Below are positions 34,631-50,040 of a stretch of DNA of 64,000 nucleotides, in pieces (position 1 is the stretch's first letter; each line of letters starts with the position of its first letter). This DNA comes from a virus: IMG/VR virus record IMGVR_UViG_3300029790_000003. One strand, given 5' to 3'. The notes beneath the pieces are model-generated. The model searched no databases. It was given only the letters and a program-made list of their open reading frames with translations, and was not told the DNA's origin. The position numbers and the translations under genes were made by a program.

Positions 34631-34702
34631 TAGAAACAACAGGAATCGAACCTGTGTCACATGATATTCAATATCATTGCTCTACCACTGAGCTATGTTT
34701 CT
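34631..34702 (-). tRNA. tRNA, class-I cloverleaf with anticodon UGA (Ser-type anticodon but short variable arm)
   Basis: Manual fold: acceptor AGAAACA/TGTTTCT, D-arm GCTC-AGTGGTA-GAGC, AC arm ATGAT-ATTGAAT-ATCAT, T-arm ACAGG-TTCGATT-CCTGT, discriminator A. Confidence 0.6.
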
Positions 34703-34925
34703 TTTTTCATCATAAAACGCTAAACTAGATGATTTTTTTAGAATCCCCGACTATCACTCCTCACGGGCATTGGTCTTATCTCTCTAAAAAGTTTTTGCAC
34801 AAGATCGCTAGTGAGTTGCGTCTATATGCCTGCACGAATGCACGCAAACGCATCCGCATTTATGTGCAAGAACTAACAATAGCTATGCTAAAGTCAGATG
34901 TCCTATCTACACTTGGTAGATGGAA

Positions 34926-34997
34926 TAGCAGGAGACGGATTCGAACCGCCGTTTCCATTGATATGAGCCATGTGAGATTCTGCTTCTCTATCCTGCT
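34926..34997 (-). tRNA. tRNA with anticodon CAU (Met/Ile2-type)
   Basis: Manual fold: acceptor AGCAGGA/TCCTGCT, AC arm CATGG-CTCATAT-CAATG (one G-A mismatch), T-arm GGCGG-TTCGAAT-CCGTC. Confidence 0.5.
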
Positions 34998-35166
34998 ATG
35001 TACATGTTTGGAAGAACCATTTCAGCACGTTCACTTATTGACTACTAGAGGAAGTCACTATATCACCGATAAACAGTACGTATTCGGAACTCGGTTATAC
35101 ATTCCTACGCACTGCTCTGTGCTTTTCCTACCACCAAACTTTCAGTCTCCAAACAATCGGAAAGGA

Positions 35167-35235
35167 TGGATTCGAACCATCAAGACCTAGTCGACTAGCC
35201 CGTTCCCAGTTACTTGCACTTTCCGAATAACCCGG
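35167..35235 (-). tRNA. tRNA-like element, non-canonical (possible tRNA relic)
   Basis: Good acceptor (CGGAAAG/CTTTCCG) and T-arm (GATGG-TTCGAAT-CCATC), but only 69 nt; no foldable D/anticodon arms; contains palindrome CTAGTCGACTAG. Confidence 0.3.
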
Positions 35236-35516
35236 TTCTTCCGGGTTAGCAATAGGTTTATCGTGTTATGCTTTCCACTATCTACAAGTTTTAGTGCTGT
35301 AGATTCACTGGATATTTTTATGCGTCTTTGAACGGCATCTCTTGAAAACTCCTTTTATTAACGTGCGCTGCGTTAATGTTTTTAACTCCGAGATATACCA
35401 GCCGGGAAATCAGATCCATTTAAGCTACGCCGTATCGCACCTAAATTCACCTAATCCACACGCTCAACTGGAAGTTTTTTCCACCCATATTACGGATGAA
35501 TGGCATTTAGAAGAAA

Positions 35517-35589
35517 TAGAAGCTCTGGGATTCGAACCCAGGACTTACGACTTATGAGGCCGTTGCTCTTACCGCTGAACTAAGCTTCC
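35517..35589 (-). tRNA. tRNA with anticodon CAU (Met/Ile2-type)
   Basis: Acceptor GGAAGCT/AGCTTCT (G1-U72), D-arm GTTC-AGCGGTA-GAGC, AC arm ACGGC-CTCATAA-GTCGT, T-arm CTGGG-TTCGAAT-CCCAG. Confidence 0.65.
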
Positions 35590-35739
35590 TAAGATACCGA
35601 ATTATTTGACCGCCATGACAAACAATCCGGCACTGTTGCAGTTCTTGACCACCAGCCGCAACAAAGGTTTTCTGAAACACTTTTAGATTTCAGAAAAGAG
35701 TGTTATAAAATGAACTTGCGGCATTAGCGAAACCGCAAA

Positions 35740-35812
35740 CTGGGCTAACTGGATTCGAACCAGCAAATGCAGCAGTCAAAGTGCTGTGCCTTAACCATTT
35801 GGCGATAGCCCA
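35740..35812 (-). tRNA. tRNA-Gln (anticodon UUG)
   Basis: Acceptor TGGGCTA/TAGCCCA with U1-A72 and discriminator G (Gln-like), AC arm CAGCA-CTTTGAC-TGCTG, T-arm GCTGG-TTCGAAT-CCAGT. Confidence 0.65.
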
Positions 35813-38076: not shown

Positions 38077-38541
38077 TCAACTTACAATTTCAATTGGATA
38101 TCCTAAGTATGCTTCTAACTCTGAAACAGTCAGTTTGCGTGGTTTCTTTATTTCAACATAAGCACGCTGTATGATATTGTCTTTTGTCTTTGCGATTGCC
38201 TTTCCAGTATAACTTTCAAGCTCTTCGTTTGCATATACATTCAAATGTTCATATCCATATGCCCGGCACCATCTTGCAGCTGAATCAACAATTTTTCTTA
38301 GCTCTTCTTGCTCATCACCAAACAACTCCGAATATCTAACCGCTTTGTTGAAATCACTCGAACTTACTTCATAAGGAGCCACAACATGTTTATATGGACT
38401 TCCAATAAAATGAAAGTATCTATGTGATTCCATTGCTTTTTGGCCTTTTGGTAAGTTGAATCCTTGAGCTATTGCTTTTTTTAAGCAACTGTTCTGATTC
38501 AACATTGTTTTCTGTAACAATACACTTGTTTGTAAAATCAA
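38077..38541 (-). CDS. Hypothetical protein (154 aa)
   Basis: ORF with a 4-nt overlap to the resolvase gene. Confidence 0.45.
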   Translation of the reverse strand: MILQTSVLLQKTMLNQNSCLKKAIAQGFNLPKGQKAMESHRYFHFIGSPYKHVVAPYEVSSSDFNKAVRYSELFGDEQEELRKIVDSAARWCRAYGYEHLNVYANEELESYTGKAIAKTKDNIIQRAYVEIKKPRKLTVSELEAYLGYPIEIVS

Positions 38542-39128
38542 TCATCTTTATCCCCCTCTAAAAGTTTATATAACGTACTTCTTGAAACTCCTATAATATT
38601 GGCAAATTGTACCTTTGTTATTTCCCCTCTTTGCCAGCTACGTTTAGTTTCGTTGAAAAGTTCCTTATCTATCTCTTTTTTGGCACGACCTTTATATTTG
38701 CCCTTGGCTTTTGCAATTAAAATACCTTCTTTTTGTCGCTGACGAATATTTTCCCTTTCTCTTTGTGCTACATATGAGAGAAGCTGCAAAACTATGTCTG
38801 CGATCAATGTTCCTGTCAAGTCTTTATTTTGCGTAGTATTAAGTAACGGCATATCCTGTACAATAATATCTGCTTCAATCTCTTTTGTGATTCTTCTCCA
38901 TTCAGCAATAATCTCTTCGTAGTTTCTTCCAAGACGGTCAATTGAATGGATTACCAGAATGTCACCTTTTTGAAGAGAAGCAATCATTTTCTGGTACTCT
39001 GGACGATTGAAGTCTTTCCCAGATTTTTTATCCATATAAATTCTTTCAACACCATCTGCTTTCATTGCTTCAATTTGTCTCGCTTCATTTTGCTCTACTG
39101 TTGAAACTCTTACATATCCTACTTTCAT
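38538..39128 (-). CDS. Small serine recombinase (resolvase/invertase family, 196 aa)
   Basis: Start MKVGYVRVSTVEQ (RBS CAGGAGCG); catalytic Ser motif; C-terminal HTH (IIGVSRSTLYKLL). Confidence 0.85.
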   Translation of the reverse strand: MKVGYVRVSTVEQNEARQIEAMKADGVERIYMDKKSGKDFNRPEYQKMIASLQKGDILVIHSIDRLGRNYEEIIAEWRRITKEIEADIIVQDMPLLNTTQNKDLTGTLIADIVLQLLSYVAQRERENIRQRQKEGILIAKAKGKYKGRAKKEIDKELFNETKRSWQRGEITKVQFANIIGVSRSTLYKLLEGDKDD

Positions 39129-39158
39129 ATATACACGCTCCTGTTTCTTTATAAAACA

Positions 39159-39187
39159 ATTATACACTATAATGTGTGTGTTTTCAA
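39159..39187 (-). promoter_or_regulatory. Sigma-70-type promoter for the resolvase gene (TTGAAA-17-TATAAT)
   Basis: Minus-strand -35 at 39182-39187, -10 at 39159-39164, 17-nt spacer. Confidence 0.6.
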
Positions 39188-39265: not shown

Positions 39266-39499
39266 ATGGTATCTCAAAAAATTAAACAAATAATGAAAAT
39301 GAAAAAAATTACAAATATTCAAGTTGCTGAACATCTAGGAACTTCACCACAAGCACTAGCTAACAAGTTTTCCAGAGAAACGCTTTCTGCATATGAGCTT
39401 ATAGCCATCCTTGACTTTCTTGGTTGTCAAATTTCTGTTGAAGCATTTCCAGATATCATAGTAAAATTTAATAGCAATGATCTGAAAAGAGAGCCTTAA
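39266..39499 (+). CDS. XRE/Cro-like HTH transcriptional regulator (77 aa)
   Basis: ITNIQVAEHLGTSPQALANKFS HTH. Confidence 0.6.
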   Translation: MVSQKIKQIMKMKKITNIQVAEHLGTSPQALANKFSRETLSAYELIAILDFLGCQISVEAFPDIIVKFNSNDLKREP

Positions 39500-40128: not shown

Positions 40129-40719
40129 TTATAGCTCCGGTTTTTCCATCTCTGGAAGCTCCAGCGCCGCTTTGTGCTTCTCCGCGATCTGCTGGGCGGT
40201 CTGCTGTGGTACGCCGTATTGCTGCGCGGCTTGCACTGGTGCAGTTTCTGCCATGCCGTATGCGGCTTTTGCAACAAATATCAAATTCGCATTTGTTCCG
40301 GTCTGGTTATGCAATCTATTGATTGCACAGTTTTTGCAAATATCAAACCATTTTTTAGCCGTGTCACCATGTGACGAGTTTGTTCTATACACTCCATTCA
40401 TCCAATCAGTAAACGTTGTACGATTAATCCCAACTAAAAAGCTAAATACTTCTAAAGTTGGTAATACATGATATTTACTACATAATCTCACATAAGTATT
40501 AAACATTTTATCTAATAGCTCTATATTGTCATTACTTGGCTTTTGTATATGATCTGCAATATAAAAAATCATATCTACAAAGCTATCTGATACTTCTTTC
40601 TTATAGTTTTCGTTATCTGGTGATATACATAATACAGTATTTATATACTCATCAGCATATATATTAATATTATCTAAATAGATATCTACGTCTTGTATAT
40701 TTACCGTATTATCTTTCAT
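40129..40719 (-). CDS. Hypothetical HTH-containing protein (196 aa)
   Basis: RBS GAGGTGA; possible HTH LEVFSFLVGINRTTFTDW; Q/A-rich C-terminus. Confidence 0.5.
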   Translation of the reverse strand: MKDNTVNIQDVDIYLDNINIYADEYINTVLCISPDNENYKKEVSDSFVDMIFYIADHIQKPSNDNIELLDKMFNTYVRLCSKYHVLPTLEVFSFLVGINRTTFTDWMNGVYRTNSSHGDTAKKWFDICKNCAINRLHNQTGTNANLIFVAKAAYGMAETAPVQAAQQYGVPQQTAQQIAEKHKAALELPEMEKPEL

Positions 40720-40751
40720 ATTATCACCTCACTTTAACACGTTAATTTGTA

Positions 40752-40822
40752 AATAAAAAAAGAGAATGTCACCGGGTAAAGCTTATTCCCGGAAAATTTC
40801 CGGGTGTTCGGGTACATTCTCT
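40752..40822 (-). terminator. Rho-independent terminator (long hairpin plus TTTTTTTATTT)
   Basis: AGAGAATGT...ACATTCTCT stem with internal CCGGG pairing, T-run on the minus strand. Confidence 0.55.
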
Positions 40823-41425
40823 AAAACTCAAAATAAAATATTCTGTTTTCTTTGTTGCTGATACCTTAGCACAGTTTTTAATATCTTGTCAAATTTAATT
40901 TTGCATAAAATAAAGCCCTTTATTTTGTCAGTAATTAATAAATAATATTTGTGGTATTATATTATAATCTTCATTTATATTTATATTATATATATTATTA
41001 TACGGTACTGTATAGCATATCTTTTAATAAACTCCAGCTTTAGGAATCTAGGAAGGGCAGAGAATAATTATATAATTATATATAATATAAGGGCGGCTAC
41101 ATTTTCGCAGATTTGCATAATAAAAGCCAGACCTTCCAGGAGTTTCTATCCGGCGTGATCTGGCTTGTTATGCGTGTTGTTTAATTAACGATTCTGTGTA
41201 CTTTCAGCCTCTGCCCTTCCTGAGTTCCGTCAGCTCTCGTTATCTGATAGCCTAAAGAAGTTTTAGAAAAATGTCAAGCGGTATTTTAAAAATATTTTTC
41301 TTGACAATTTGCCAAAAGCTGTGTTATTAAAATATTAACAGGCTCGGCGGCGGTCTGTACTCTGTCCATAGCCGCCACAAATAAGCATATTAAAAGCCCC
41401 TGGATAATTTCCTAGGGCTTTATTT

Positions 41426-41596
41426 TTATTCTTCCTCTTCTTCCTCTAACCATATTTGACACTGCTTGCCGTCCTCTTCGTAGCTGATAGCTTCACCAGC
41501 TTCCAGGCGTTCCCGCCAGTCCTCCGGGTAATTCTCCGGTCTGTAAATACAGTTTCCCGGAAGGAATTGATTTCCGCGCATTTCATTTATTTTCAT
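41426..41596 (-). CDS. Small acidic protein (56 aa), below the ORF-track cutoff
   Basis: RBS GGAGGGAAAAT then ATG at 41596; MKINEMRGNQFLPG...EEEEEE. Confidence 0.35.
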   Translation of the reverse strand: MKINEMRGNQFLPGNCIYRPENYPEDWRERLEAGEAISYEEDGKQCQIWLEEEEEE

Positions 41597-41642
41597 ATTT
41601 TCCCTCCTGTCCGCCCTCCTGGGGCTGTGTGGTTGTTTTTCT

Positions 41643-42185
41643 TTAACTGTCCATTCTATGCAATATTTGATATTTTAGCATAGATATTAATGTTCTGTAT
41701 TCTTCTGGTTTTTCGCACACTATTATCAAAGTATTTACAATTTCATAATCTGTCATTTTTTCAATATCTGAAAATTCTAACTTTTTATAACTTTTTTCTC
41801 TTGCCTTTTTGCACTTCAACAATTCGTTTTTACCATAAAAACCAGTAGAAACAGGCTTGCAAAATTCGTTATTATAACCATGATAAGCATTATATTTTTT
41901 TATAAATCCTTCTTCTGCTTCTCTCAGATCATAATCTGTTATTGTAAAATCTGGAAAAGTTTTAAGAACTATAAATTCAAAATTTTCCAAATCTTCAAAC
42001 GTTTTCAAGTCTTCATCCATTTTTAAATTTGAGCCTTGCAGCTTTTCCATGTTTCGCTGATGCGTTTTTAATCTGGTTTTAACATTCACGCTAGAGCCTA
42101 TGTAATACTTATCATTTTTCTTATTGTGAATTGCATAAACTCCAACCGCTTCGACATCTGGCACCTCGATAATATGTTTTTTCAT
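41643..42185 (-). CDS. GIY-YIG homing endonuclease (180 aa)
   Basis: GVYAIHNKKNDKYYIGSSVNVKTRLKTHQ matches the GIY-YIG motif. Confidence 0.7.
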   Translation of the reverse strand: MKKHIIEVPDVEAVGVYAIHNKKNDKYYIGSSVNVKTRLKTHQRNMEKLQGSNLKMDEDLKTFEDLENFEFIVLKTFPDFTITDYDLREAEEGFIKKYNAYHGYNNEFCKPVSTGFYGKNELLKCKKAREKSYKKLEFSDIEKMTDYEIVNTLIIVCEKPEEYRTLISMLKYQILHRMDS

Positions 42186-42225
42186 TCTGCAACCACTTCC
42201 TTTCTATGGTTACAGTATATATTAT

Positions 42226-42608
42226 TAGTGCTTAATTGTCAATAGTGATCTGTGCTTAATTTACATTTTTTTCATTCTATCCATTTTATCAAGTTCTGCA
42301 AGAATTAATTCCCTTGCGAACGCGTTTGTTTTTAATCCATATGCGTTTATTCTGTCGAGCGTTCCCTGCGGTAAGATCACATTTATTCTATCCTTATTTT
42401 TCATACATTTCTTTACTGCTTCTCTATTTTTTACTGCTTTTTCTTCTGCTGTTAATTCTGCCATGTTTATTCCTCCTTTATTTTTCTTCATTATAATATG
42501 TGCGTGCTTAATTGTCAATAATTTTAGTGCTTAATCATAATGCACAATTTGCCGCAAATAATTAGTGCTTAATTTATTTATTATGCCAATTGCTATTAGT
42601 GCTTAATT
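42226..42608 (+). repeat. Six direct copies of (TA)GTGCTTAAT(T) flanking the RHH gene (putative operator/iterons)
   Basis: Copies at 42226, 42252, 42504, 42526, 42563 and 42597; 16-mer GTGCTTAATTGTCAATA occurs twice. Confidence 0.65.
42261..42464 (-). CDS. Ribbon-helix-helix DNA-binding protein (67 aa)
   Basis: Start MAELTAEE (RBS AAGGAGGA); ..DRINVILPQGTLDRINAY.. RHH-like. Confidence 0.55.
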   Translation of the reverse strand: MAELTAEEKAVKNREAVKKCMKNKDRINVILPQGTLDRINAYGLKTNAFARELILAELDKMDRMKKM

Positions 42609-42831
42609 AGTGTATTATATAACCATCAACAGAGAACAAAAGAAACAAACAACCGGAACCGCCCGAACCACTCAACACAATGAGGACATAGGAACCGGCA
42701 CCGATTAATTGAAAAATTCTAGTTCTTGGACAAAACAAAAAAGCTGGCTGCATCCTACCAAGACGAACAGCCAGCACCAAACTAAAAAAAGAAAGGCAAC
42801 CCCATTATAACAGGGGTGAGGGTAAAAAACA

Positions 42832-43110
42832 ATGAAAAAAATCGAAACATTAGTAATCAGAGGTCGTAGATGGTTTCAGAAATTATACGGAAACACTTAT
42901 CACACAGTAACGGTTGTTGTAAATGGCCATGTTTTAAAAAGTAATATTCAATACGGTTATGGCACTCAGTACCTTGTTACTGCCGCCGATCTTCTCCGTG
43001 AAAATGGATATGATATTCCAGAAAATAACCTGGAAGCATTGAGAACTTTAAAAGAACTTTCCGAAAATGATTATGAGGTCGTTGACGTTCCGAGAAAAAA
43101 AGATTTATAG
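42832..43110 (+). CDS. Hypothetical protein (92 aa)
   Basis: First gene of a 5-6 gene plus-strand operon. Confidence 0.5.
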   Translation: MKKIETLVIRGRRWFQKLYGNTYHTVTVVVNGHVLKSNIQYGYGTQYLVTAADLLRENGYDIPENNLEALRTLKELSENDYEVVDVPRKKDL

Positions 43111-43121
43111 GAGGTATAACC

Positions 43122-43484
43122 GTGAATAACAAGTATTTAAATTTCCTTAACTGGGCAGTATTTACAATGATAGATAGAAAAACACAGGACGATCACAAGA
43201 GCAAGATTCAAGTTTGCGGATTATTCCGCAGCCCGGTTTTAGCTGAGGAAAGTTTTTTACCTAATTTGCCAAACCCGGAAGTTAAACGGTATCTGCTCCA
43301 TGTGGACGATCTGGAGCGGTTCGAAGAGTTTTATAATTTCATCCAGGATCTTAACGAGAAATACGGTGATTACGCAATATTTCATGTTAAAGATGGAAAT
43401 TTCACAGTTGACGAAGAAAACAAATTCCGCTATATGCTTCATATTTGGACAGATACAAAAATTAGAGGGGTTGACATGTTTTGA
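43122..43484 (+). CDS. Hypothetical protein (120 aa)
   Basis: RBS AGGAGGT then GTG/ATG. Confidence 0.5.
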   Translation: MNNKYLNFLNWAVFTMIDRKTQDDHKSKIQVCGLFRSPVLAEESFLPNLPNPEVKRYLLHVDDLERFEEFYNFIQDLNEKYGDYAIFHVKDGNFTVDEENKFRYMLHIWTDTKIRGVDMF

Positions 43485-43684
43485 AAATTAACGCATTTAC
43501 TTTAGTGTCCGATTTACCAGAGCACATTAAACAGAAGATTTTACAGGAAGCACGGCAGACTTTTGAGGGTTTGTCTTATCCTGTGGATATCCAAGAGGAG
43601 ATTGAGACAGTGAAAAATTCTAAAATGTGTGATATTGAATGCACGGTTGATGTGCAGAAGTATTATACAGAACGTGTCAAATAG
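43481..43684 (+). CDS. Hypothetical protein (67 aa)
   Basis: ORF with a 4-nt overlap. Confidence 0.4.
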   Translation: MKINAFTLVSDLPEHIKQKILQEARQTFEGLSYPVDIQEEIETVKNSKMCDIECTVDVQKYYTERVK

Positions 43685-43700
43685 AAAGGAGAGCGAAGGC

Positions 43701-43964
43701 ATGGGAAATAACTATATTATTCATTTGCAAACCGGAAATAGAATAATTACAGAAGAAGAAGCGATAGCTAACGCAGAAGAGCAGAAAGCTAAAGGAATAA
43801 AACCGCATTATGTGCTTTTTGACGGTGATAAAAAGGAAAAGCTTTCAAATCCCGGCTGGCTGATCTGGTCAACTTGGGAAGATGGTGCAGGCGTTGTGGT
43901 TCCTCGCGATGACGGAAAGCTTGTTTTACTTACTGGCTGGCAGTCTAATTTAGCATACTGTTAG
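43701..43964 (+). CDS. Hypothetical protein (87 aa)
   Basis: Start moved to MGNNYII (RBS AAGGAGAG). Confidence 0.45.
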   Translation: MGNNYIIHLQTGNRIITEEEAIANAEEQKAKGIKPHYVLFDGDKKEKLSNPGWLIWSTWEDGAGVVVPRDDGKLVLLTGWQSNLAYC

Positions 43965-43980
43965 GCGTGATGATCTTCTG

Positions 43981-44010
43981 CCCGGTTCGATTCCGGGGCG
44001 CGTCTTTTTA
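43981..44010 (+). terminator. Terminator hairpin that mimics a tRNA T-arm plus acceptor 3' end (CCCGGTTCGATTCCGGGGCGCGTC then TTTTTA)
   Basis: GGTTCGATTCC T-loop consensus within a 5-bp stem; no 5' half of a tRNA upstream. Confidence 0.5.
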
Positions 44011-44033
44011 TCAAAATTATGGAGGTTAAAAGA

Positions 44034-44234
44034 ATGAAAAACTATAATGTATATTATTCTGGAGGATCAAAAATAACAATAGTAAAAGCAAGTTGTGTTA
44101 TAAAAGCTTGCAAAGCCTTTATGGAACAATTTAATAAGCCTTACAAAATAGAAAAATATGGTTATGATTATGCAGCTATCAGATTTTGTGATAATTACTC
44201 TATATGCAGTGATTATGTAGTGATTTCAGAATGA
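44034..44234 (+). CDS. Hypothetical protein (66 aa)
   Basis: RBS GGAGG then ATG at 44034. Confidence 0.4.
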   Translation: MKNYNVYYSGGSKITIVKASCVIKACKAFMEQFNKPYKIEKYGYDYAAIRFCDNYSICSDYVVISE

Positions 44235-44434
44235 TTTTATTATTTCCTGGCTCCCAGGGTGAAGGGAAGAAAGAAAAAAATATGGACTTAATGCAAATAA
44301 TAAGTTATATACGTGAAAAACATTTGGAAGCTGAGTTTAATAAATTTAGAAATTATCGGTGCATTTCTAGTGTAGAACCTATAGAAACAACATTAATTCT
44401 ATTTTATAAAAATCAAAAAGCATCATCGAAATAG
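44231..44434 (+). CDS. Hypothetical protein (67 aa)
   Basis: ORF only. Confidence 0.35.
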   Translation: MILLFPGSQGEGKKEKNMDLMQIISYIREKHLEAEFNKFRNYRCISSVEPIETTLILFYKNQKASSK

Positions 44435-44466
44435 ATTTCCACCGCTTACCAGCTACCAGGCTGGCG

Positions 44467-44496
44467 GCACGTTCACGGCGTGCAAGCGGTTTTTTT
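44467..44496 (+). terminator. Rho-independent terminator ending the plus-strand operon
   Basis: GCACG-TTCACGG-CGTGC then AAGCGGTTTTTTT. Confidence 0.6.
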
Positions 44497-44653
44497 GGCA
44501 TTCTGTCAGTAGTACCTTGGCAATTTAATAGCACAAGTCAGCAAATAAGCAAGCTATTTAAGCCGCAAATGGCTTTTAATGCTGTTAATGGGGATTTATG
44601 CCACTATTGCATTATAAGCCGTTTATGAGCCTTTAAATGCGTTACATGGTTTA

Positions 44654-44682
44654 TTGACTGTCTGCGGCTATGGGTGTATAAT
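44654..44682 (+). promoter_or_regulatory. Near-consensus sigma-70 promoter (TTGACT-17-TATAAT) firing into an ORF-free region
   Basis: -35 at 44654-44659 and -10 at 44677-44682 with exact 17-nt spacing. Confidence 0.55.
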
Positions 44683-45439
44683 AGCCTTGTGTAGCTATGT
44701 GCGGCTATGCCTTATTTGCGTACCTTTCCAACAGGCGCATTATGTCCTCTTATGTGCGTAGCTTGTACAGGCTTCCCGGTGATCTGTCGCAGCTGTCCGG
44801 GTTATATATCAATTATTGTTGTATGGCGCTGTATTTGCCATTTTAAGGCGTTTTATAATCGTAGTCAATAAAGTATAGGCTAAATACGTTACAAGCTATT
44901 TAAGGCTTATTTTGCAAGAGTATTATTGTATTTTAACGCCACGTTATATGTTACTTGTTGCTATGGCCTATTATCTGTGGGCGGTTGGTTCTGGTCTGCC
45001 AGGTCTACGGCTGGCTGTCGTCTTTGTTGATATTCAATCATTCCCGGAATCGTCACGGCTTCATCAGCTTGGCGCGGTATCGGCTCCCGGTGCTGCCCCT
45101 GGTTGATTTTGTGGCAATGGAAAACCGCAGTTGTTCAAAACTTCAATAGTGCAACTAACTTGTGGATGATTCCTAAATTCTAACATTATTTTGGCAACAA
45201 AAAATCAAGGAAATCCAGAAAAAAGTGGCAACCAGAAAAAATCTCGCATTTTCTAGTTACCACTTAAATTTTAATTTTGCACAAATATTTCTATAGCGTA
45301 AAGTTCCAAATAATTCAAAATTCACAATTTGTTTAATCCTTCTTTCTTCCGTGTTCCATATCTTCTGTAGGATGATTTCTCTAAACGTTCCGTCCTCTTC
45401 ATTTGGGACTTGGAAAGTTTCTTCTTTCTCTGGTAATTA

Positions 45440-46120
45440 TCAGTCGTTGTTCCCATTCACGCACTCCTTGTTAATCTTCTGATTCCTGGTTTCAAAGTTT
45501 ATAATTTCCGTGTCTGTTTCCAATTCTTCCGGGATTCTTCCAACAATGATAACTCGCAGCGGCTTCAATCTGCGTTCCATTTCCTTGAAACCAACGCAAA
45601 ACTCCAACCGTGCTGCCTTGCTCTTTACTCTTCCATTGGTGCAACAGGCAACTGTGCTTCCCTCTGGTAGCCCATCAAAGCACCAGTCCCAACAGTATTC
45701 TGGTAATATGTTTACGTTCGGAATTACTGGAATATCATTCAAGATCATGTAGTGAGACAATGCATGATTGCGGTATTTATTCCACAGGCACATAGCTAAC
45801 GGCATTCCATTCTTGCCAACCGATATGCTGAAATCTGGCATAATGACTGCATGAAAACATTTTAAATGCTCCATATACTTGTCTGGCTGATTCCATAATC
45901 TTTGAAACTGTACATCGTCCACATAGAAATTTACATCCAGTTCCCGGTGGTTCTTAATCTTCCGGCTAAAGCTCTCCGCAAAGTCTACAGTATCTTTTCC
46001 AGGATGGATAAAAGTCTTTGGGATTTTCGGGATTTCGTACTTACCATCAAGGTCTGCATCCGTGATTAAAAATTCTTTCATTACGTCATAAGCTGTATGT
46101 ATCATTGATTCCACTCCCAT
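45440..46120 (-). CDS. Hypothetical protein (226 aa) immediately downstream of the integrase
   Basis: ORF only; Cys/His/Trp-rich. Confidence 0.5.
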   Translation of the reverse strand: MGVESMIHTAYDVMKEFLITDADLDGKYEIPKIPKTFIHPGKDTVDFAESFSRKIKNHRELDVNFYVDDVQFQRLWNQPDKYMEHLKCFHAVIMPDFSISVGKNGMPLAMCLWNKYRNHALSHYMILNDIPVIPNVNILPEYCWDWCFDGLPEGSTVACCTNGRVKSKAARLEFCVGFKEMERRLKPLRVIIVGRIPEELETDTEIINFETRNQKINKECVNGNND

Positions 46121-46128
46121 TTTTTCTC

Positions 46129-47841
46129 TTATAGTGCTAAAAGGTACTTATATTTGAAAAATACCATATCTTGTGTCTTAATGCAAGTTTTCCTACTAAA
46201 TATCTTGTGTTGTTCTGAATGTAGAGTAAAAATCATATCGTCAGAACGGCGCAAGGGAAACCCCCATTTTTCAAGGCTTCCAGACCTCAATTGAAATGTT
46301 AGTGTTGCACATGTAACCGCCAACGGTTCAACGGTAATTTTCTCAAAAAGTTCATTAACAATCTGTCTGTTAATATCTTGTGGAGTAACACCTTTGAACT
46401 TTTCTAGCTGTTCTTTAATAGCACTTAATTGTATTTCTACTGGCTCTGGACTTTTGGTATTTTGGATTTCTAGAATATGACTCTCAATCTGCTTTATCTG
46501 CTTCACGTATTCTTTATTTCTTGAAATAAATTCATCATCAGATATTTTTCCATCCAGATTATATTCCAGTATTTTTTCACGTTTTTGTTTTAACAGATCA
46601 ATCTGTTTTTCAAGTCGTGAGATTTCGTTTTTATTGTCTGGAATGTTTTTGATCGAGGACTGCAAAATTTCAAAATATTCCTCCAAAATGCTGTCAATAT
46701 TTTCAGAAGATTTATTTATCAATTCTGCAATTATTTCTTTCAGTTCTGATTCTGCCAGCCCGAACGAATTGCAAGAAGCTGCTCCGTTTTTTATTTTATA
46801 GCTGCACACCCATCGAACATCCTCTTTTCCTCTGATATAATGTTGCTTCATCCAGTATGGTGCTCCGTCATTTGCGCAGAAAAGTTTTCCAGTGAAAATA
46901 TTTTCGCTTTTAAAAGAGGTTCTTCTTGATTTTATGGCTTCTCCACGCTCTCTTAAATATGCGTTTGCCTTTTCCCAGGTAGCTTCATCAATGATCTGCG
47001 GTACTCTTGAACCATCATCCTTAAACATTATCCATTCTGACTGCGGAAGAAATTCTTGTTTCTTGGTGAACATATCGACAACCTTTACTTTTCCTCCACA
47101 ATAGTATCCTTTGTATTTTGGATTCCGAATAATATTTTTTATGACATCCCGGTTGATTTTCCCACCTTTGAAACTTCTGTATCCCATATCCCAGAGCTTT
47201 TTTTCGATTCTTGGCGTAGATATTCCGGAAGCGTAATCTTGAAAAATCATTCGAACCATGTCCGCTTCTTCTGGAACCAGTTCGAGCTTTCCTTGATTGT
47301 TTGAGTATCCATACATTCTGTGCCCGAGAACAACACCATTTTTGATTGACTGTGCGTGTCCAAATTTTACTCTTGAAGAAAGCTTGCGGATTTCGTCCTG
47401 CGCTACCCCAGCCATAATAGTAAGTCGGAACTCACTATCATCATCAATAGTGTTAATTCCATCGTTTTGGAACCACACGCATACGCCATAAGATAACAAT
47501 TCCCTGGTATATTGGATGCTGTCAAGAGTATTTCGTGCAAATCTTGAAATTTCTTTCGTAATAATCATGTCAATTTTTCCGAGCTTTGCATCTCTGAGCA
47601 TTCTTTGAAATTCTTCTCTTTTATCCGCATGTATTCCAGAAATACCATCATCAATGTAAGAACCAGCAAACTTCCATCTGTTGTTAGAATGTATCAGATC
47701 TTCAAAATGTTCCTCCTGGTGCTTAATGGATGCTTGCTGTTCAACTTTTTCAGTAGAAACCCTGGCATAATAAGCAACATTTAGTTCAATGTCGTAAATA
47801 GAGCAATTTCTTAATTTTTCTCTGACATAATAAATATTCAT
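46129..47841 (-). CDS. Large serine recombinase (phage integrase, ~570 aa)
   Basis: Start MNIYYV (RBS AAGGGAG); YYARVSTEKVEQQ catalytic motif; recombinase domain, zinc-ribbon cysteines and a long C-terminal coiled coil. Confidence 0.85.
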   Translation of the reverse strand: MNIYYVREKLRNCSIYDIELNVAYYARVSTEKVEQQASIKHQEEHFEDLIHSNNRWKFAGSYIDDGISGIHADKREEFQRMLRDAKLGKIDMIITKEISRFARNTLDSIQYTRELLSYGVCVWFQNDGINTIDDDSEFRLTIMAGVAQDEIRKLSSRVKFGHAQSIKNGVVLGHRMYGYSNNQGKLELVPEEADMVRMIFQDYASGISTPRIEKKLWDMGYRSFKGGKINRDVIKNIIRNPKYKGYYCGGKVKVVDMFTKKQEFLPQSEWIMFKDDGSRVPQIIDEATWEKANAYLRERGEAIKSRRTSFKSENIFTGKLFCANDGAPYWMKQHYIRGKEDVRWVCSYKIKNGAASCNSFGLAESELKEIIAELINKSSENIDSILEEYFEILQSSIKNIPDNKNEISRLEKQIDLLKQKREKILEYNLDGKISDDEFISRNKEYVKQIKQIESHILEIQNTKSPEPVEIQLSAIKEQLEKFKGVTPQDINRQIVNELFEKITVEPLAVTCATLTFQLRSGSLEKWGFPLRRSDDMIFTLHSEQHKIFSRKTCIKTQDMVFFKYKYLLAL

Positions 47842-47922
47842 AGTGCATTTCTCCCTTAATAAACAGGGAGTGGAATCATATAAAGTATAACACCTCATAT
47901 AAATCCACTCAATACATTGTCG

Positions 47923-48611: not shown

Positions 48612-49135
48612 TTTTCAGCACCTCCCAATCTGGCAGTATCTATAATTTTTAAAAGGTCTGGACTTAGTTTTCTTCGTTCTTGTTCTCTTTGCACTTCTGC
48701 CCGATACGTCCTTTGAAAATTTGATTGAACTACACTCCACCATGTACCATCTACATTTTCAGATACCGCCCATTCTCTAAGTTGTGCCGGACTTGATACT
48801 GCTTTCTGAATGATTTTTGGAAGCTTATCAAACTCTGTTTCTGCGTTATATGTAGAGTTCTGAATAGCTTTGCATACCTTTTCCCAGGCTTCTGTTTCAT
48901 TCAGCTCTTCCTTTTGCGGTGCAACGCTTTGTGCGCATTGCCTTAATGCGGCTATTGATGGCTCTTTCCATTCCGTCTGCATATATTTCTTTAATCCGAA
49001 ACTTAAAAGCTTGTAATCCAGGTCTTTCAGTAATCCGTACCAAGTATCAAAAGCATATTGATCTGGCAGAAATGCTGGGGAAGTGTACACAGCTTTCATT
49101 GCCTTTACCAGTACCGCCCATTCTTCTCTTGTCAT
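48581..49135 (-). CDS. Replication-associated hypothetical protein (184 aa)
   Basis: Directly downstream of the replisome organizer. Confidence 0.45.
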   Translation of the reverse strand: MTREEWAVLVKAMKAVYTSPAFLPDQYAFDTWYGLLKDLDYKLLSFGLKKYMQTEWKEPSIAALRQCAQSVAPQKEELNETEAWEKVCKAIQNSTYNAETEFDKLPKIIQKAVSSPAQLREWAVSENVDGTWWSVVQSNFQRTYRAEVQREQERRKLSPDLLKIIDTARLGGAENCQIENHGEN

Positions 49136-50040
49136 ACCCAGTTATCCACCTCGCTTACCCTGTTTTGTATTTTCTCCATGTAACTTTGAGGCTTGTTACC
49201 GGATTTATCAAGATAGTTCCCTTCAAATACCTTCGCAAAGTTACCGGGCTTTAAGAACCAATCGAAAGTTATCATCCAACCTTCTTTGTTCTGGCCTTGT
49301 AAGAAGCTGCTATGGCGAATGTTTTCAATGGCTTCTAAGATATCGTCCATATGGTTCTGACGGATTCTGGCTTTCACTGCTTGTTCTCGTTTTGATGTCA
49401 TTCTTTTTACAGGGTTAATACCAAATTCTTCCAGAGTATTCCATTCATCAATGATTCGTTGGACGTCAGTCTGACGAATAGTATCTTTAGATACTATTAA
49501 ATCATTTATATCTTTTTCTTTATCTTTATCTAATTCTGTATCTAAATCTAATTCTAAATCTTTATCTAAACCTATATCTTTATCTGAGTGCGTCTTTCGT
49601 TCGTCTATTTTGCGTCTTTTCTGCGTCTGCCTGTTTGAACGCTCTATTAGTTTGGTATCATCAATAGAATTTCCATTTGTCAGTGAGTAACTTCCGTTAT
49701 CTTTCAATAGCAGTTTCTTTTTTTCATCAGTGTATGAAGTTTCTATATATCTGTCTCTGGACAGGGTGTTGTGCATTCTCCAATGTTTAATAACGATCAC
49801 GCCATCATCAAACAAGATAACAAATCTCTTGGCAATTAGAAGCTTCAAATCATCATCATTCGCTCCTATTATTTTTTCAATCCTCTTTGGGTTTCCAATA
49901 AATCCATCATCGTCAGCTCTCATGTTTAGATGAAAATAAAGACATTGTGTTGATAACGGCATATCAAGGAAAGCATCTGTATCAACAATTTTCATTGTGA
50001 ACATTCTTTTATTTGCCAATTTTGAAATTCCTTTCTCCAA
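49132..50040 (-). CDS. Phage replisome organizer (N-terminal Phage_rep_org_N-like) with internal origin iterons
   Basis: FTMKIVDTDAFLDMPLSTQCLYFHLNMRADDDGFIGNPKRIEKI.. N-terminal domain; the iteron DNA encodes DKDLELDLDTELDKDKEKD. Confidence 0.65.
   Translation of the reverse strand: MEKGISKLANKRMFTMKIVDTDAFLDMPLSTQCLYFHLNMRADDDGFIGNPKRIEKIIGANDDDLKLLIAKRFVILFDDGVIVIKHWRMHNTLSRDRYIETSYTDEKKKLLLKDNGSYSLTNGNSIDDTKLIERSNRQTQKRRKIDERKTHSDKDIGLDKDLELDLDTELDKDKEKDINDLIVSKDTIRQTDVQRIIDEWNTLEEFGINPVKRMTSKREQAVKARIRQNHMDDILEAIENIRHSSFLQGQNKEGWMITFDWFLKPGNFAKVFEGNYLDKSGNKPQSYMEKIQNRVSEVDNWV
49509..49629. repeat. Iteron array, copy B (putative origin inside the replisome-organizer gene)
   Basis: Short (T)ATCT(A/T)AAnC units and tgcgtct repeats; homologous to copy A at 10111-10217. 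Confidence 0.65.

What the first reader, a model, noticed from the sequence alone, without database searches (positions are those of the whole stretch)
42226..42608. Sixfold direct repeat (TA)GTGCTTAAT(T) bracketing a ribbon-helix-helix gene
- **Copies:** six same-orientation copies of an 11-12 bp motif at 42226, 42252, 42504, 42526, 42563 and 42597.
- **Arrangement:** two lie just downstream of the RHH gene 42261..42464 and four lie in its upstream region.
- **Longer repeat:** the 16-mer GTGCTTAATTGTCAATA occurs twice.
- **Interpretation:** RHH proteins bind tandem repeats, so this looks like an autoregulated operator or iteron set, possibly a partition- or plasmid-like control region.
- **Neighbour:** it sits next to a GIY-YIG endonuclease gene.
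Basis: seen in the sequence. Interest (0 to 1): 0.55.

Follow-up and report, generated by a model that had tools for sequence, protein, structure and literature searches.

The report
Phage repressor operators at three promoters
The six repeats are most likely the binding sites through which a small phage DNA-binding protein shuts off its own promoter and two neighbouring promoters; this is a well-known kind of control circuit, found here in an uncharacterised protein family of gut (Lachnospiraceae) phages.

Summary
GTGCTTAAT occurs six times in 380 bp, all on one strand, and once more in the whole 64 kb window (0.78 expected). The genes here are on the minus strand, where the unit is a 13-mer, ATTAAGCACTAAT.

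Two copies fill the first bases of the 17-nt spacer of two near-perfect sigma-A promoters. One is TTGACA-17-TATAAT in front of the 67-aa RHH-like gene. The other is TTGACA-17-TATACT in front of the GIY-YIG gene. A third copy sits in the spacer of a conserved divergent promoter candidate.

Across 54 distinct related phage sequences the operator columns are 98% conserved, against 69% for the surrounding DNA. In an IMG/VR scan, clusters of the motif occur only beside a homologue of this gene.

Distant homologues (about 46-56% identical) keep the same layout. Those with a different residue in the presumed DNA-reading strand (N28S) carry a different repeated 13-mer. This links the protein to the sites.

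Best reading: an autoregulated repressor with six operators that controls two short divergent cassettes of variable accessory genes, much like Reg576 of plasmid p576 or Arc of P22. There is no support for iterons or a partition site. The RHH fold is probable, not proven. It is a new member of a known kind.

The parts
42595..42607 (-). O1: operator 13-mer ATTAAGCACTAAT. On the + strand it lies in the spacer of the divergent promoter candidate.
   Evidence: 20.4 bits. Invariant in relatives.
42561..42573 (-). O2: operator 13-mer ATTAAGCACTAAT, 34 bp from O1.
   Evidence: 20.4 bits..
42523..42535 (-). O3: operator ATTAAGCACTAAA, centred 23 bp upstream of O4 and just upstream of the -35 of P1.
   Evidence: 18.7 bits..
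42500..42512 (-). O4: operator ATTAAGCACGCAC, the first 13 nt of the 17-nt spacer of P1 (-48..-36 from the ATG).
   Evidence: 17.0 bits. Distant homologues have a site at the same position.
42248..42260 (-). O5: operator ATTAAGCACAGAT. It abuts the stop codon of the RHH-like gene and lies 24 bp upstream of O6.
   Evidence: 17.5 bits.
42224..42236 (-). O6: operator ATTAAGCACTAAT, the first 13 nt of the spacer of P2.
   Evidence: 20.4 bits.
42490..42518 (-). P1: promoter of the RHH-like gene, TTGACA-17 nt-TATAAT (12 of 12 consensus positions).
   Evidence: Hexamers 97% conserved over 54 distinct relatives.
42214..42242 (-). P2: second promoter, TTGACA-17 nt-TATACT (11 of 12), in front of the GIY-YIG gene.
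   Evidence: The same promoter plus two-copy arrangement follows the gene in relatives, including a 55%-identical homologue (L085).
42590..42618 (+). Pdiv: divergent promoter candidate TTGCTA-17 nt-TATTAT (9 of 12), with O1 in its spacer. It would drive the + strand genes 42832..44434.
   Evidence: The -10 and the TTG of the -35 are conserved. In relatives a divergent gene with a ribosome-binding site starts about 45 nt beyond it. Function is inferred.
42261..42464 (-). Gene for the 67-aa RHH-like DNA-binding protein (phrog_31631). AAAGGAGG lies 8 nt upstream of the ATG.
   Evidence: Sub-threshold RHH matches.
41643..42185 (-). GIY-YIG homing-endonuclease-like gene, the cargo behind P2.
   Evidence: Present as variants of 29-100% identity in 30 of 80 related loci and replaced by unrelated genes in the others.
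41426..41596 (-). 56-aa ORF, the last gene of the leftward unit.
   Evidence: Found in only 2 related loci.
41398..41417 (.). Terminator-like hairpin that probably ends the P1/P2 unit.
42832..44434 (+). Divergent unit of six small genes of unknown function (92, 120, 67, 87, 71 and 67 aa).
   Evidence: Gene content is highly variable among relatives.
42540..42547 (-). Conserved block TTGTGCAT, 4 nt upstream of O3. Its role is unknown; it may be a degenerate inverted half-site.
   Evidence: Unexplained.

Best explanation
The six repeats are operators for the 67-aa protein encoded between them. That protein is probably a ribbon-helix-helix dimer, with residues 24-31 (KDRINVIL) as the DNA-reading strand.

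Each operator is a 13-bp unit, ATTA-AGCAC-TAAT: symmetric outer arms around an asymmetric core.

Two strong host sigma-A promoters on the - strand each carry one operator filling the spacer directly after the -35 hexamer, and a second operator 23-24 bp upstream. P1 drives the regulator gene. P2 drives a variable cargo, here GIY-YIG plus a 56-aa ORF. Two further operators lie upstream of P1. One of them sits in the spacer of a divergent promoter candidate for six small + strand genes.

Proposed mechanism: when the DNA is free of protein, for example on entry into a cell or on induction, the promoters fire. The protein then accumulates, occupies the spacers and flanks, blocks RNA polymerase, and turns down its own gene and both accessory cassettes. 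This is negative feedback giving a pulse or a low steady level.

Shown here: the sites, their positions in promoters, their conservation, their exclusive association with the gene, and the co-variation of site and protein.

Inferred: the fold, actual binding, repression rather than activation, and the timing.
For: 1. Six sites score 17-20.4 bits and nothing else in 64 kb exceeds 12.5 bits.
2. P1 matches the promoter consensus at 12 of 12 positions and P2 at 11 of 12. In both, the motif forms the first bases of the 17-nt spacer.
3. All 80 IMG/VR loci with a close homologue keep the copies in the same order and orientation. Over 54 distinct upstream sequences the operator columns are 98% identical, the promoter hexamers 97%, and the remaining columns 69% (alignment).
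4. A scan of IMG/VR for AAATTAAGCACTAAT gave 119 loci. In 57 a homologue lies within 700 nt, and all 57 have 3-6 clustered copies. Of the 62 loci without a homologue, 58 have a single copy, and the 4 with 2-3 copies are cut off at the end of the stored stretch.
5. Distant homologues have the same layout with other motifs:
 - P0125 (strand DRISAVV): TTGACA-ATTATCCGATAAT..-TACTAT plus two more ATTATCTGATAAT.
 - P0132 (DRLSIVL): TTGACA-ATTAACTGTTAACG..-TATAGT plus a second copy.
 - P0128 (DRLNVTF): TTGAAA-ATCAAGCACAGAT..-TATAGT plus two more copies.
 - P0141 (YRLNIVF): two copies of WYACGCACWTAT.
 - P0129 and P0136 (DRINVYL, DRINIIL) keep ATTAAGCAC at 46-56% overall identity.
 Every protein with R26-x-N28 keeps an A(A/C)GCAC or AAACAC core. 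Both N28S proteins have a different core.
6. The optimal 17-nt spacers and consensus hexamers imply promoters that are strong without an activator, so a protein sitting in the spacer should repress. This is inference from established promoter biology.
7. Fold: profiles of the family give PutA RHH domains as best PDB matches (E = 0.02-0.03), aligned strand to strand and helix to helix. hhalign against CopG is in register (P = 0.004). The recurring sub-threshold Pfam hits are RHH families: CB_ParB_C in 5 members (best E = 0.0013), HicB_lk_antitox, RHH_1, RHH_5, RepB-RCR_reg and CcdA. One database source names a member 'Arc-like DNA binding domain protein'.
Against: - No binding or expression data exist.
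- No RHH family reaches its curated threshold.
- The AlphaFold monomer model is poor (pLDDT 61.6, no strand formed), and the fold searches were uninformative.
- The site spacings (23, 24, 34, 38 bp) are not integral helical turns, so how dimers would cooperate is unclear.
- All copies in the close family point the same way, which a purely symmetric dimer site would not require.
- The divergent promoter matches only 9 of 12 positions.
- For one distant homologue (P0124, L089) no clear repeated motif was resolved.
- The protein-site co-variation rests on about nine lineages and was read by eye.
Confidence: 0.8

Rival explanations
1. The sites are operators, but for a different regulator: a host factor or another phage protein such as the Cro/CI-type HTH at 39266..39499. 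The adjacent small gene would be only a passenger.
For: No binding data exist. The window does encode other small DNA-binding proteins.
Against: Motif clusters occur only next to homologues of this gene. Neighbouring genes on both sides differ between relatives while the gene and its sites stay together. The motif changes when the protein's predicted reading strand changes.
Confidence: 0.07
2. The protein binds the sites but activates rather than represses, or acts as a switch. For example it could repress P1 and P2 while activating the divergent promoter, or the reverse.
For: Two copies (O2, O5) lie outside core promoter elements. O3 and O5 sit near -46, a classical activator position. The divergent promoter is weaker (9 of 12) and might need help.
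Against: P1 and P2 are consensus promoters with optimal spacers and an operator inside the spacer, the geometry of repression. Characterised RHH regulators with this layout, Reg576 (PMC6294495) and ArtA (PMC2777438), repress.
Confidence: 0.08
3. The repeats are iterons of a replication origin, or a centromere for a partition system of the omega/ParG type.
For: Five family members give weak hits to the RHH domain of a centromere-binding ParB (best E = 0.0013, below threshold). Omega-type proteins bind same-orientation repeats.
Against: No ParA-type ATPase or Rep gene lies next to the sites in the window or in any related locus inspected. The DnaD-like replication gene is 6.5 kb away. The copies are not contiguous or regularly spaced, and they coincide with promoter spacers. 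The element has an integrase and is found in chromosomes-sized contigs.
Confidence: 0.03
4. The repeats have no function of their own. They are leftovers of duplicating a promoter cassette, or part of the promoter recognised by RNA polymerase.
For: P1 and P2 share a 47-nt repeat at 72% identity (D3). Two copies are fused to TTGACA.
Against: Four copies are not attached to a same-strand -35. The copies are far better conserved than their flanks. A relative carries an inverted copy in a promoter spacer (L093). Distant homologues have unrelated motifs in the same places.
Confidence: 0.02

Closest known systems
Reg576 of Bacillus pumilus plasmid p576 (PMC6294495)
   Same: A small RHH repressor in a Firmicute mobile element. 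It represses its own promoter and several others nearby. Those promoters are consensus sigma-A type with 17-bp spacers, and short same-orientation repeats lie just upstream of the -35 and inside spacers. The regulated genes are accessory or establishment genes, giving a burst of expression after DNA entry until repressor accumulates.
   Different: The Reg576 unit is a 7-mer (TTATCCC) used as a closely spaced dual motif bound by two dimers. Here the unit is a 13-mer and single copies lie 23-38 bp apart. The family profile does not detect any Reg576 chain in the PDB at E <= 10. The host element is a plasmid, not a phage.
Arc repressor and the Pant/Pmnt region of phage P22 immI (own knowledge)
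   Same: A small phage RHH encoded as the first gene behind a strong promoter. Its operator lies between the -35 and -10, and it negatively autoregulates and also affects an overlapping divergent promoter.
   Different: Arc uses one 21-bp operator with two inverted half-sites bound by a tetramer. Here there are six dispersed sites at three promoters. There is no Pfam Arc hit, and hhalign against Arc is not in register (P = 0.09). This protein has an extra conserved N-terminal helix.
CopG of pMV158 (own knowledge)
   Same: The operator contains a 13-bp pseudosymmetric element at the promoter of its own operon. The hhalign alignment to this family is in register over the strand and the first helix (P = 0.004).
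   Different: CopG controls plasmid copy number at a single promoter, with dimers spreading over contiguous DNA. The similarity is below significance.
Omega of pSM19035, and ArtA of pSK41 (PMC2777438)
   Same: One small RHH protein governs several promoters through short repeated units, which may be non-palindromic and in one orientation. ArtA binds single sites as a dimer and has a functional N-terminal extension.
   Different: Omega heptads are contiguous arrays and double as a centromere with a ParA partner. No such partner is present here. The ArtA operator, ACATGACATG, is unrelated.

Membership tests
Ribbon-helix-helix superfamily | Strand-helix-helix topology forming an intertwined dimer | tested here: inconclusive
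   The AF2 monomer has pLDDT 61.6: helices at 35-41 and 48-66 and a coil at 23-34 where the strand should be. A triple-repeat relative is modelled as strand-helix-helix three times, but at pLDDT 47. Foldseek searches were uninformative. No dimer could be modelled.
Ribbon-helix-helix superfamily | Significant sequence or profile match to an RHH family | tested here: inconclusive
   No hit reaches threshold. Best matches: PutA RHH domain E = 0.02-0.03, in register; CopG hhalign P = 0.004, in register; HicB_lk_antitox E = 0.12; CB_ParB_C best E = 0.0013 in 5 of 47 members, plus RHH_1, RHH_5, CcdA and RepB-RCR_reg.
Ribbon-helix-helix superfamily | N-terminal strand alternating polar and hydrophobic residues, and a Gly-containing turn before the second helix | tested here: met
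   Read directly from alignments A1-A3. K24-D-R26-I-N28-V-I-L31 has R26 nearly invariant. G43 is invariant in the close family and retained by most distant members, and is followed by K-T-N before the helix FARELIL.
Autoregulated repressor with operators | A site overlapping the core promoter of the regulator's own gene | tested here: met
   O4 occupies the spacer of the 12-of-12 promoter P1. Distant homologues have a site at the same position.
Autoregulated repressor with operators | Sites conserved beyond the neutral background and confined to the locus | tested here: met
   98% against 69% column identity. No other site in 64 kb. Clusters occur only next to the gene in IMG/VR.
Autoregulated repressor with operators | Site sequence co-varies with the protein's recognition residues | tested here: met
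   N28 proteins keep an AGCAC-like core. N28S proteins have TCYGA or ACTGT cores. This rests on about nine lineages and is qualitative.
Autoregulated repressor with operators | Specific binding, and repression in vivo | not testable with these tools
   Needs EMSA or footprinting and reporter assays.
Plasmid or phage origin iterons | Regularly spaced tandem repeats next to the gene of the initiator that binds them | tested here: not met
   The spacings are 23, 24, 34, 38 and 252 bp. The neighbouring genes are GIY-YIG and small unknown ORFs. The DnaD-like gene is at 49132..50040.
Type Ib / omega-type partition centromere | A ParA-type ATPase gene in the same cassette, and contiguous repeat arrays | tested here: not met
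   No ATPase gene lies beside the sites in the window or in the related loci inspected. The repeats are dispersed.
Type II toxin-antitoxin with an RHH antitoxin | A conserved co-transcribed toxin partner, and a toxin-binding tail on the antitoxin | tested here: not met
   The downstream gene varies between relatives and has its own promoter. The protein ends right after the second helix.
Arc family (P22 Arc/Mnt) | Sequence membership (Pfam Arc) | tested here: not met
   No Arc hit even at E <= 1-10. hhalign against Arc gives P = 0.09 and is out of register. The name 'Arc-like' comes only from one database record.
Reg576 family | Sequence similarity to the solved Reg576 structure | tested here: not met
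   Profiles A2 and A3 searched against all PDB chains at E <= 10 list no Reg576 chain. The resemblance is functional only.

The most novel reading that the evidence does not exclude
This uncharacterised family (phrog_31631 and distant relatives) may be the master immunity or early-gene switch of a large group of temperate Lachnospiraceae phages. It would have a simple, evolvable recognition code: position 28 of the reading strand sets the central pentamer of a 13-bp ATTA-N5-TAAT-type operator. Specificity variants would then define heteroimmune groups, and the conserved promoter-operator hub would serve as a plug-in slot for interchangeable accessory (possibly anti-defence) genes.
Probability: 0.15. 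Interest if true: 0.55.

Novelty: new member of a known kind. Interest (0 to 1): 0.35.

Why it matters
It gives a function, a defined 13-bp operator and three target promoters to a phage protein family that currently has no Pfam model and is labelled 'unknown function'. The family is common in human-gut Lachnospiraceae prophages.

The natural specificity variants (same layout, different 13-mer, one changed strand residue) make a ready test set for how RHH proteins read DNA. They could also supply orthogonal repressor-operator pairs for engineering Clostridia.

The circuit marks a hot spot where these phages swap small accessory genes, including homing endonucleases. That points to where early or establishment functions should be sought.

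The principle, a small RHH autorepressor with repeated operators, is textbook, so the surprise value is modest.

Tried and rejected
- Similar DNA in GenBank phages: blastn of 41400-43200 found nothing.
- Pfam, NCBIfam and PDB sequence searches with the single protein: nothing at threshold.
- AlphaFold on the monomer with a 16-sequence alignment: pLDDT 61.6.
- AlphaFold on a natural three-repeat relative, P0131, used as a stand-in for a dimer: pLDDT 47.
- Foldseek searches of both models against the PDB: only noise.
- IMG/VR scans with P0124 and P0125: no loci. Their loci were obtained by exact look-up instead.
- Operator of the P0124 homologue (L089): not resolved.
- Literature search for the motif string: only unrelated primer matches.
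- Rfam on 40500-46000: one sub-threshold miRNA hit, surely chance.
- Further - strand promoter from the conserved TTGGCA at 42589..42584: considered and set aside. Its only -10 candidate, ACTAAT, lacks the key A at position 2.
- Second + strand promoter TTGTCA-18-CATAAT (42512-42541): considered and set aside. Its -35 is lost in one subgroup of relatives.
- Toxin-antitoxin, iteron, centromere and 'promoter duplication remnant' readings: rejected for the reasons given under the rival explanations and the membership test.

Full report
**Observation**

GTGCTTAAT occurs on the + strand at 42228, 42252, 42504, 42527, 42565 and 42599. It occurs once more in the 64 kb window, at 47719 inside the integrase gene. 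That is 7 matches against 0.78 expected, and no shuffle reached 7. The longer 12-mer is exact in only three copies. The twice-occurring GTGCTTAATTGTCAATA is 17 nt long and lies inside a 47-nt repeat that is 72% identical. A weight matrix built from the six 13-mers scores them 17.0-20.4 bits, while the best other site in the window scores 12.5 bits. The repeat is therefore real, local, and not a property of AT-rich DNA in general.

**Anatomy**

Both flanking genes are on the - strand: a 67-aa ORF at 42261..42464 with a strong ribosome-binding site, and a GIY-YIG gene at 41643..42185 (PF01541, E = 8.6e-11). Read on that strand, the unit is ATTAAGCAC, usually followed by TAAT. This gives a 13-mer with symmetric arms (ATTA/TAAT) around an asymmetric core (AGCAC).

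The promoter scan found two outstanding sigma-70-type sites on the - strand:
- TTGACA-17-TATAAT at 42518..42490, matching 12 of 12 consensus positions, in front of the small gene (P1).
- TTGACA-17-TATACT at 42242..42214, matching 11 of 12, in front of GIY-YIG (P2).

In both promoters the motif forms the first bases of the spacer, directly after the -35 hexamer (O4 and O6). A second copy lies 23-24 bp upstream (O3 and O5). O5 abuts the stop codon of the small gene.

O1 and O2 lie 34 and 38 bp further upstream. On the + strand, O1 sits in the spacer of a promoter-like site, TTGCTA-17-TATTAT (42590..42618, 9 of 12). This site faces six small + strand genes at 42832..44434.

A terminator-like hairpin at 41398..41417 ends the leftward unit after a 56-aa ORF. 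The region thus consists of two short divergent cassettes that share one control region.

**Context**

The window is a temperate tailed phage. It carries a large serine integrase (46129..47898), a DnaD-like replication protein, a large terminase subunit, a portal protein, an Ant-like anti-repressor and four tRNA genes. Close homologues of the small protein sit in Lachnospiraceae genomes such as Lacrimispora and Acetatifactor, and on contigs of up to 634 kb. A host sigma-A promoter model therefore applies.

**Comparative evidence**

*Close relatives.* Eighty IMG/VR loci encode an 84-100% identical protein, and all keep the copies in the same order and orientation. In an alignment of 54 distinct upstream sequences, operator columns are 98% identical, the P1 hexamers 97%, and all other columns 69%.

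*Flanking genes.* Genes on both sides are mosaic. GIY-YIG variants of 29-100% identity follow P2 in 30 loci. In the other loci P2 drives unrelated small genes. In one subgroup an extra gene is inserted and the P2 operator pair moves with the promoter. In several relatives a divergent gene with a ribosome-binding site begins about 45 nt beyond O1. This supports the divergent promoter.

*Association with the gene.* A scan of IMG/VR for the 15-mer AAATTAAGCACTAAT returned 119 loci. In 57 a homologue lies within 700 nt, and all 57 have 3-6 clustered copies. Of the other 62, 58 have a single copy, as expected by chance. The four with 2-3 copies are cut off at the end of the stored stretch.

**Link between protein and site**

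An exhaustive HMMER search found only 53 clusters at 50% identity. Loci of distant members show the same layout with different repeats:

| Homologue (locus) | Strand residues | Repeated motif |
|---|---|---|
| Window protein | DRINVIL | ATTAAGCACTAAT, six copies |
| P0129 (L096) | DRINVYL | ATTAAGCAC kept |
| P0136 (L093) | DRINIIL | ATTAAGCAC kept, plus one inverted copy in a downstream promoter spacer |
| P0127-like (L085) | DRINIIL | ATTAAACACTAAT in a P2-type promoter after the gene |
| P0128 (L092) | DRLNVTF | ATCAAGCACNGAT, three copies |
| P0141 (L095) | YRLNIVF | WYACGCACWTAT, two copies |
| P0125 (L086) | DRISAVV | ATTATCYGATAAT (a near-perfect palindrome), three copies |
| P0132 (L087) | DRLSIVL | TTAACTGTTAACG, two copies |

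In P0125, P0132 and P0128, one copy directly follows the -35 of the gene's own promoter. In L087 and L092 that copy lies at -49..-37 from the start codon. In the window, O4 lies at -48..-36.

All proteins with R26-x-N28 retain an AGCAC-like core. Both N28S proteins have other cores. This is what direct base reading by a strand in the major groove predicts. It also argues against a different protein being the binder. The pattern was read by eye over about nine lineages, and one homologue (P0124) was not resolved.

**Fold**

- No Pfam or NCBIfam model reaches threshold.
- Family profiles give PutA RHH domains as the top PDB matches (E = 0.02-0.03), aligned strand to strand and helix to helix, with AmrZ further down the list.
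- hhalign against CopG is in register (P = 0.004). Against Arc it is not.
- The sub-threshold Pfam hits that recur across members are RHH families.
- The sequence shows the expected alternating strand and a glycine turn before the second helix.
- The AlphaFold monomer model (pLDDT 61.6) has the two helices and an extra N-terminal helix (residues 6-22), but no strand. That is usual for an obligate dimer modelled alone.
- Fold searches were uninformative.

**Mechanism**

P1 and P2 are near-consensus promoters with optimal spacers, so they should be strong without help. A protein bound in the spacer, and again at about -46, would exclude RNA polymerase.

The simplest model is negative feedback. 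The promoters fire on naked DNA, the protein accumulates, and it then turns down its own gene, the P2 cargo and probably the divergent cassette.

The best-characterised parallel is Reg576 of plasmid p576. This RHH repressor controls its own and three other consensus sigma-A promoters through short same-orientation repeats placed next to the -35 and inside spacers. It gives a burst of establishment-gene expression after DNA entry (PMC6294495). ArtA of pSK41 shows that an RHH dimer with an N-terminal extension can bind isolated sites (PMC2777438). Arc of P22 and CopG are further parallels, cited from my own knowledge.

Steps not shown here: binding, the sign of regulation, the oligomeric state, and the timing. 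It is also unknown whether the circuit acts in the lysogen, at infection, or in both.

**Rejected readings**

- *Iterons or centromere.* No Rep or ParA gene is nearby, the copies are dispersed rather than tandem, and they are tied to promoters.
- *Toxin-antitoxin.* The downstream gene is variable and separately promoted, and the protein has no C-terminal tail.
- *Intrinsic promoter element or duplication relic.* Most copies lack a same-strand -35, one relative has an inverted copy, and distant relatives have unrelated motifs at the same places.

**Verdict**

This is a new, uncharacterised member of a well-known kind of circuit. Its useful extra is a set of natural specificity variants. Interest is modest (0.35).

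Noticed in passing
window 42735-42812, - strand: An extended -10 promoter (TGtTATAAT, 42812..42804) is followed by a GC-rich hairpin (42775..42743) and a T-run (42742..42737). Together they could give a transcript of about 60 nt, antisense to the 207-nt CA-rich leader of the + strand operon that starts at 42832.
   Followed up: no
window 42540-42547, - strand: The block TTGTGCAT, 4 nt upstream of O3, is nearly invariant in all relatives. With O3 it forms an imperfect palindrome, GTGCATTAT-G-ATTAAGCAC. It may be a degenerate inverted half-site or a site for another factor.
   Followed up: partly
window 42584-42595: CAATTG joins two back-to-back -35-like hexamers: TTGCTA on the + strand and TTGGCA on the - strand. 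Both are conserved in relatives. The - strand hexamer has no convincing -10 partner.
   Followed up: partly
window 41643-42185, and loci L001-L052: The slot behind P2 holds GIY-YIG genes of very different sequence (100%, 86-96% and about 30% identity) in 30 related phages, and unrelated small genes in the others. It appears to be a hot spot for homing-endonuclease and accessory-gene exchange.
   Followed up: partly
window 44440-45440: A stretch of about 1 kb without convincing ORFs lies between the end of the + strand cassette and the nuclease-like and integrase genes. It is a candidate attP region. The sub-threshold Rfam mir-17 hit at 44556-44637 is almost certainly chance.
   Followed up: no
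window 40720-41400: An ORF-free, very AT-rich stretch with TATAATATA-type low-complexity runs and a TTGACA-containing promoter-like site. It lies upstream of the conserved 196-aa gene 40129..40719, which matches no family.
   Followed up: no
window 34631-35812, - strand: A cluster of four phage tRNA genes: Ser-TGA, Met-CAT (two copies) and Gln-TTG.
   Followed up: no
window 38538-39167 (-) and 39266-39499 (+): A small serine invertase or resolvase (209 aa) is transcribed divergently from a 77-aa Cro/CI-type HTH gene. This is a second recombinase besides the 589-aa serine integrase at 46129..47898.
   Followed up: no
protein P0131 (not in the window): A 288-aa relative carries three tandem copies of this domain in one chain. 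It may be a natural single-chain version of the dimer.
   Followed up: partly
loci L087, L088, L091, L092: In distant relatives the regulator gene is followed by an SH3_3-domain protein, and YopX-like genes lie on the divergent side. In L089 it precedes an MCM/AAA helicase-like gene. The regulator is therefore attached to quite different cargos.
   Followed up: no
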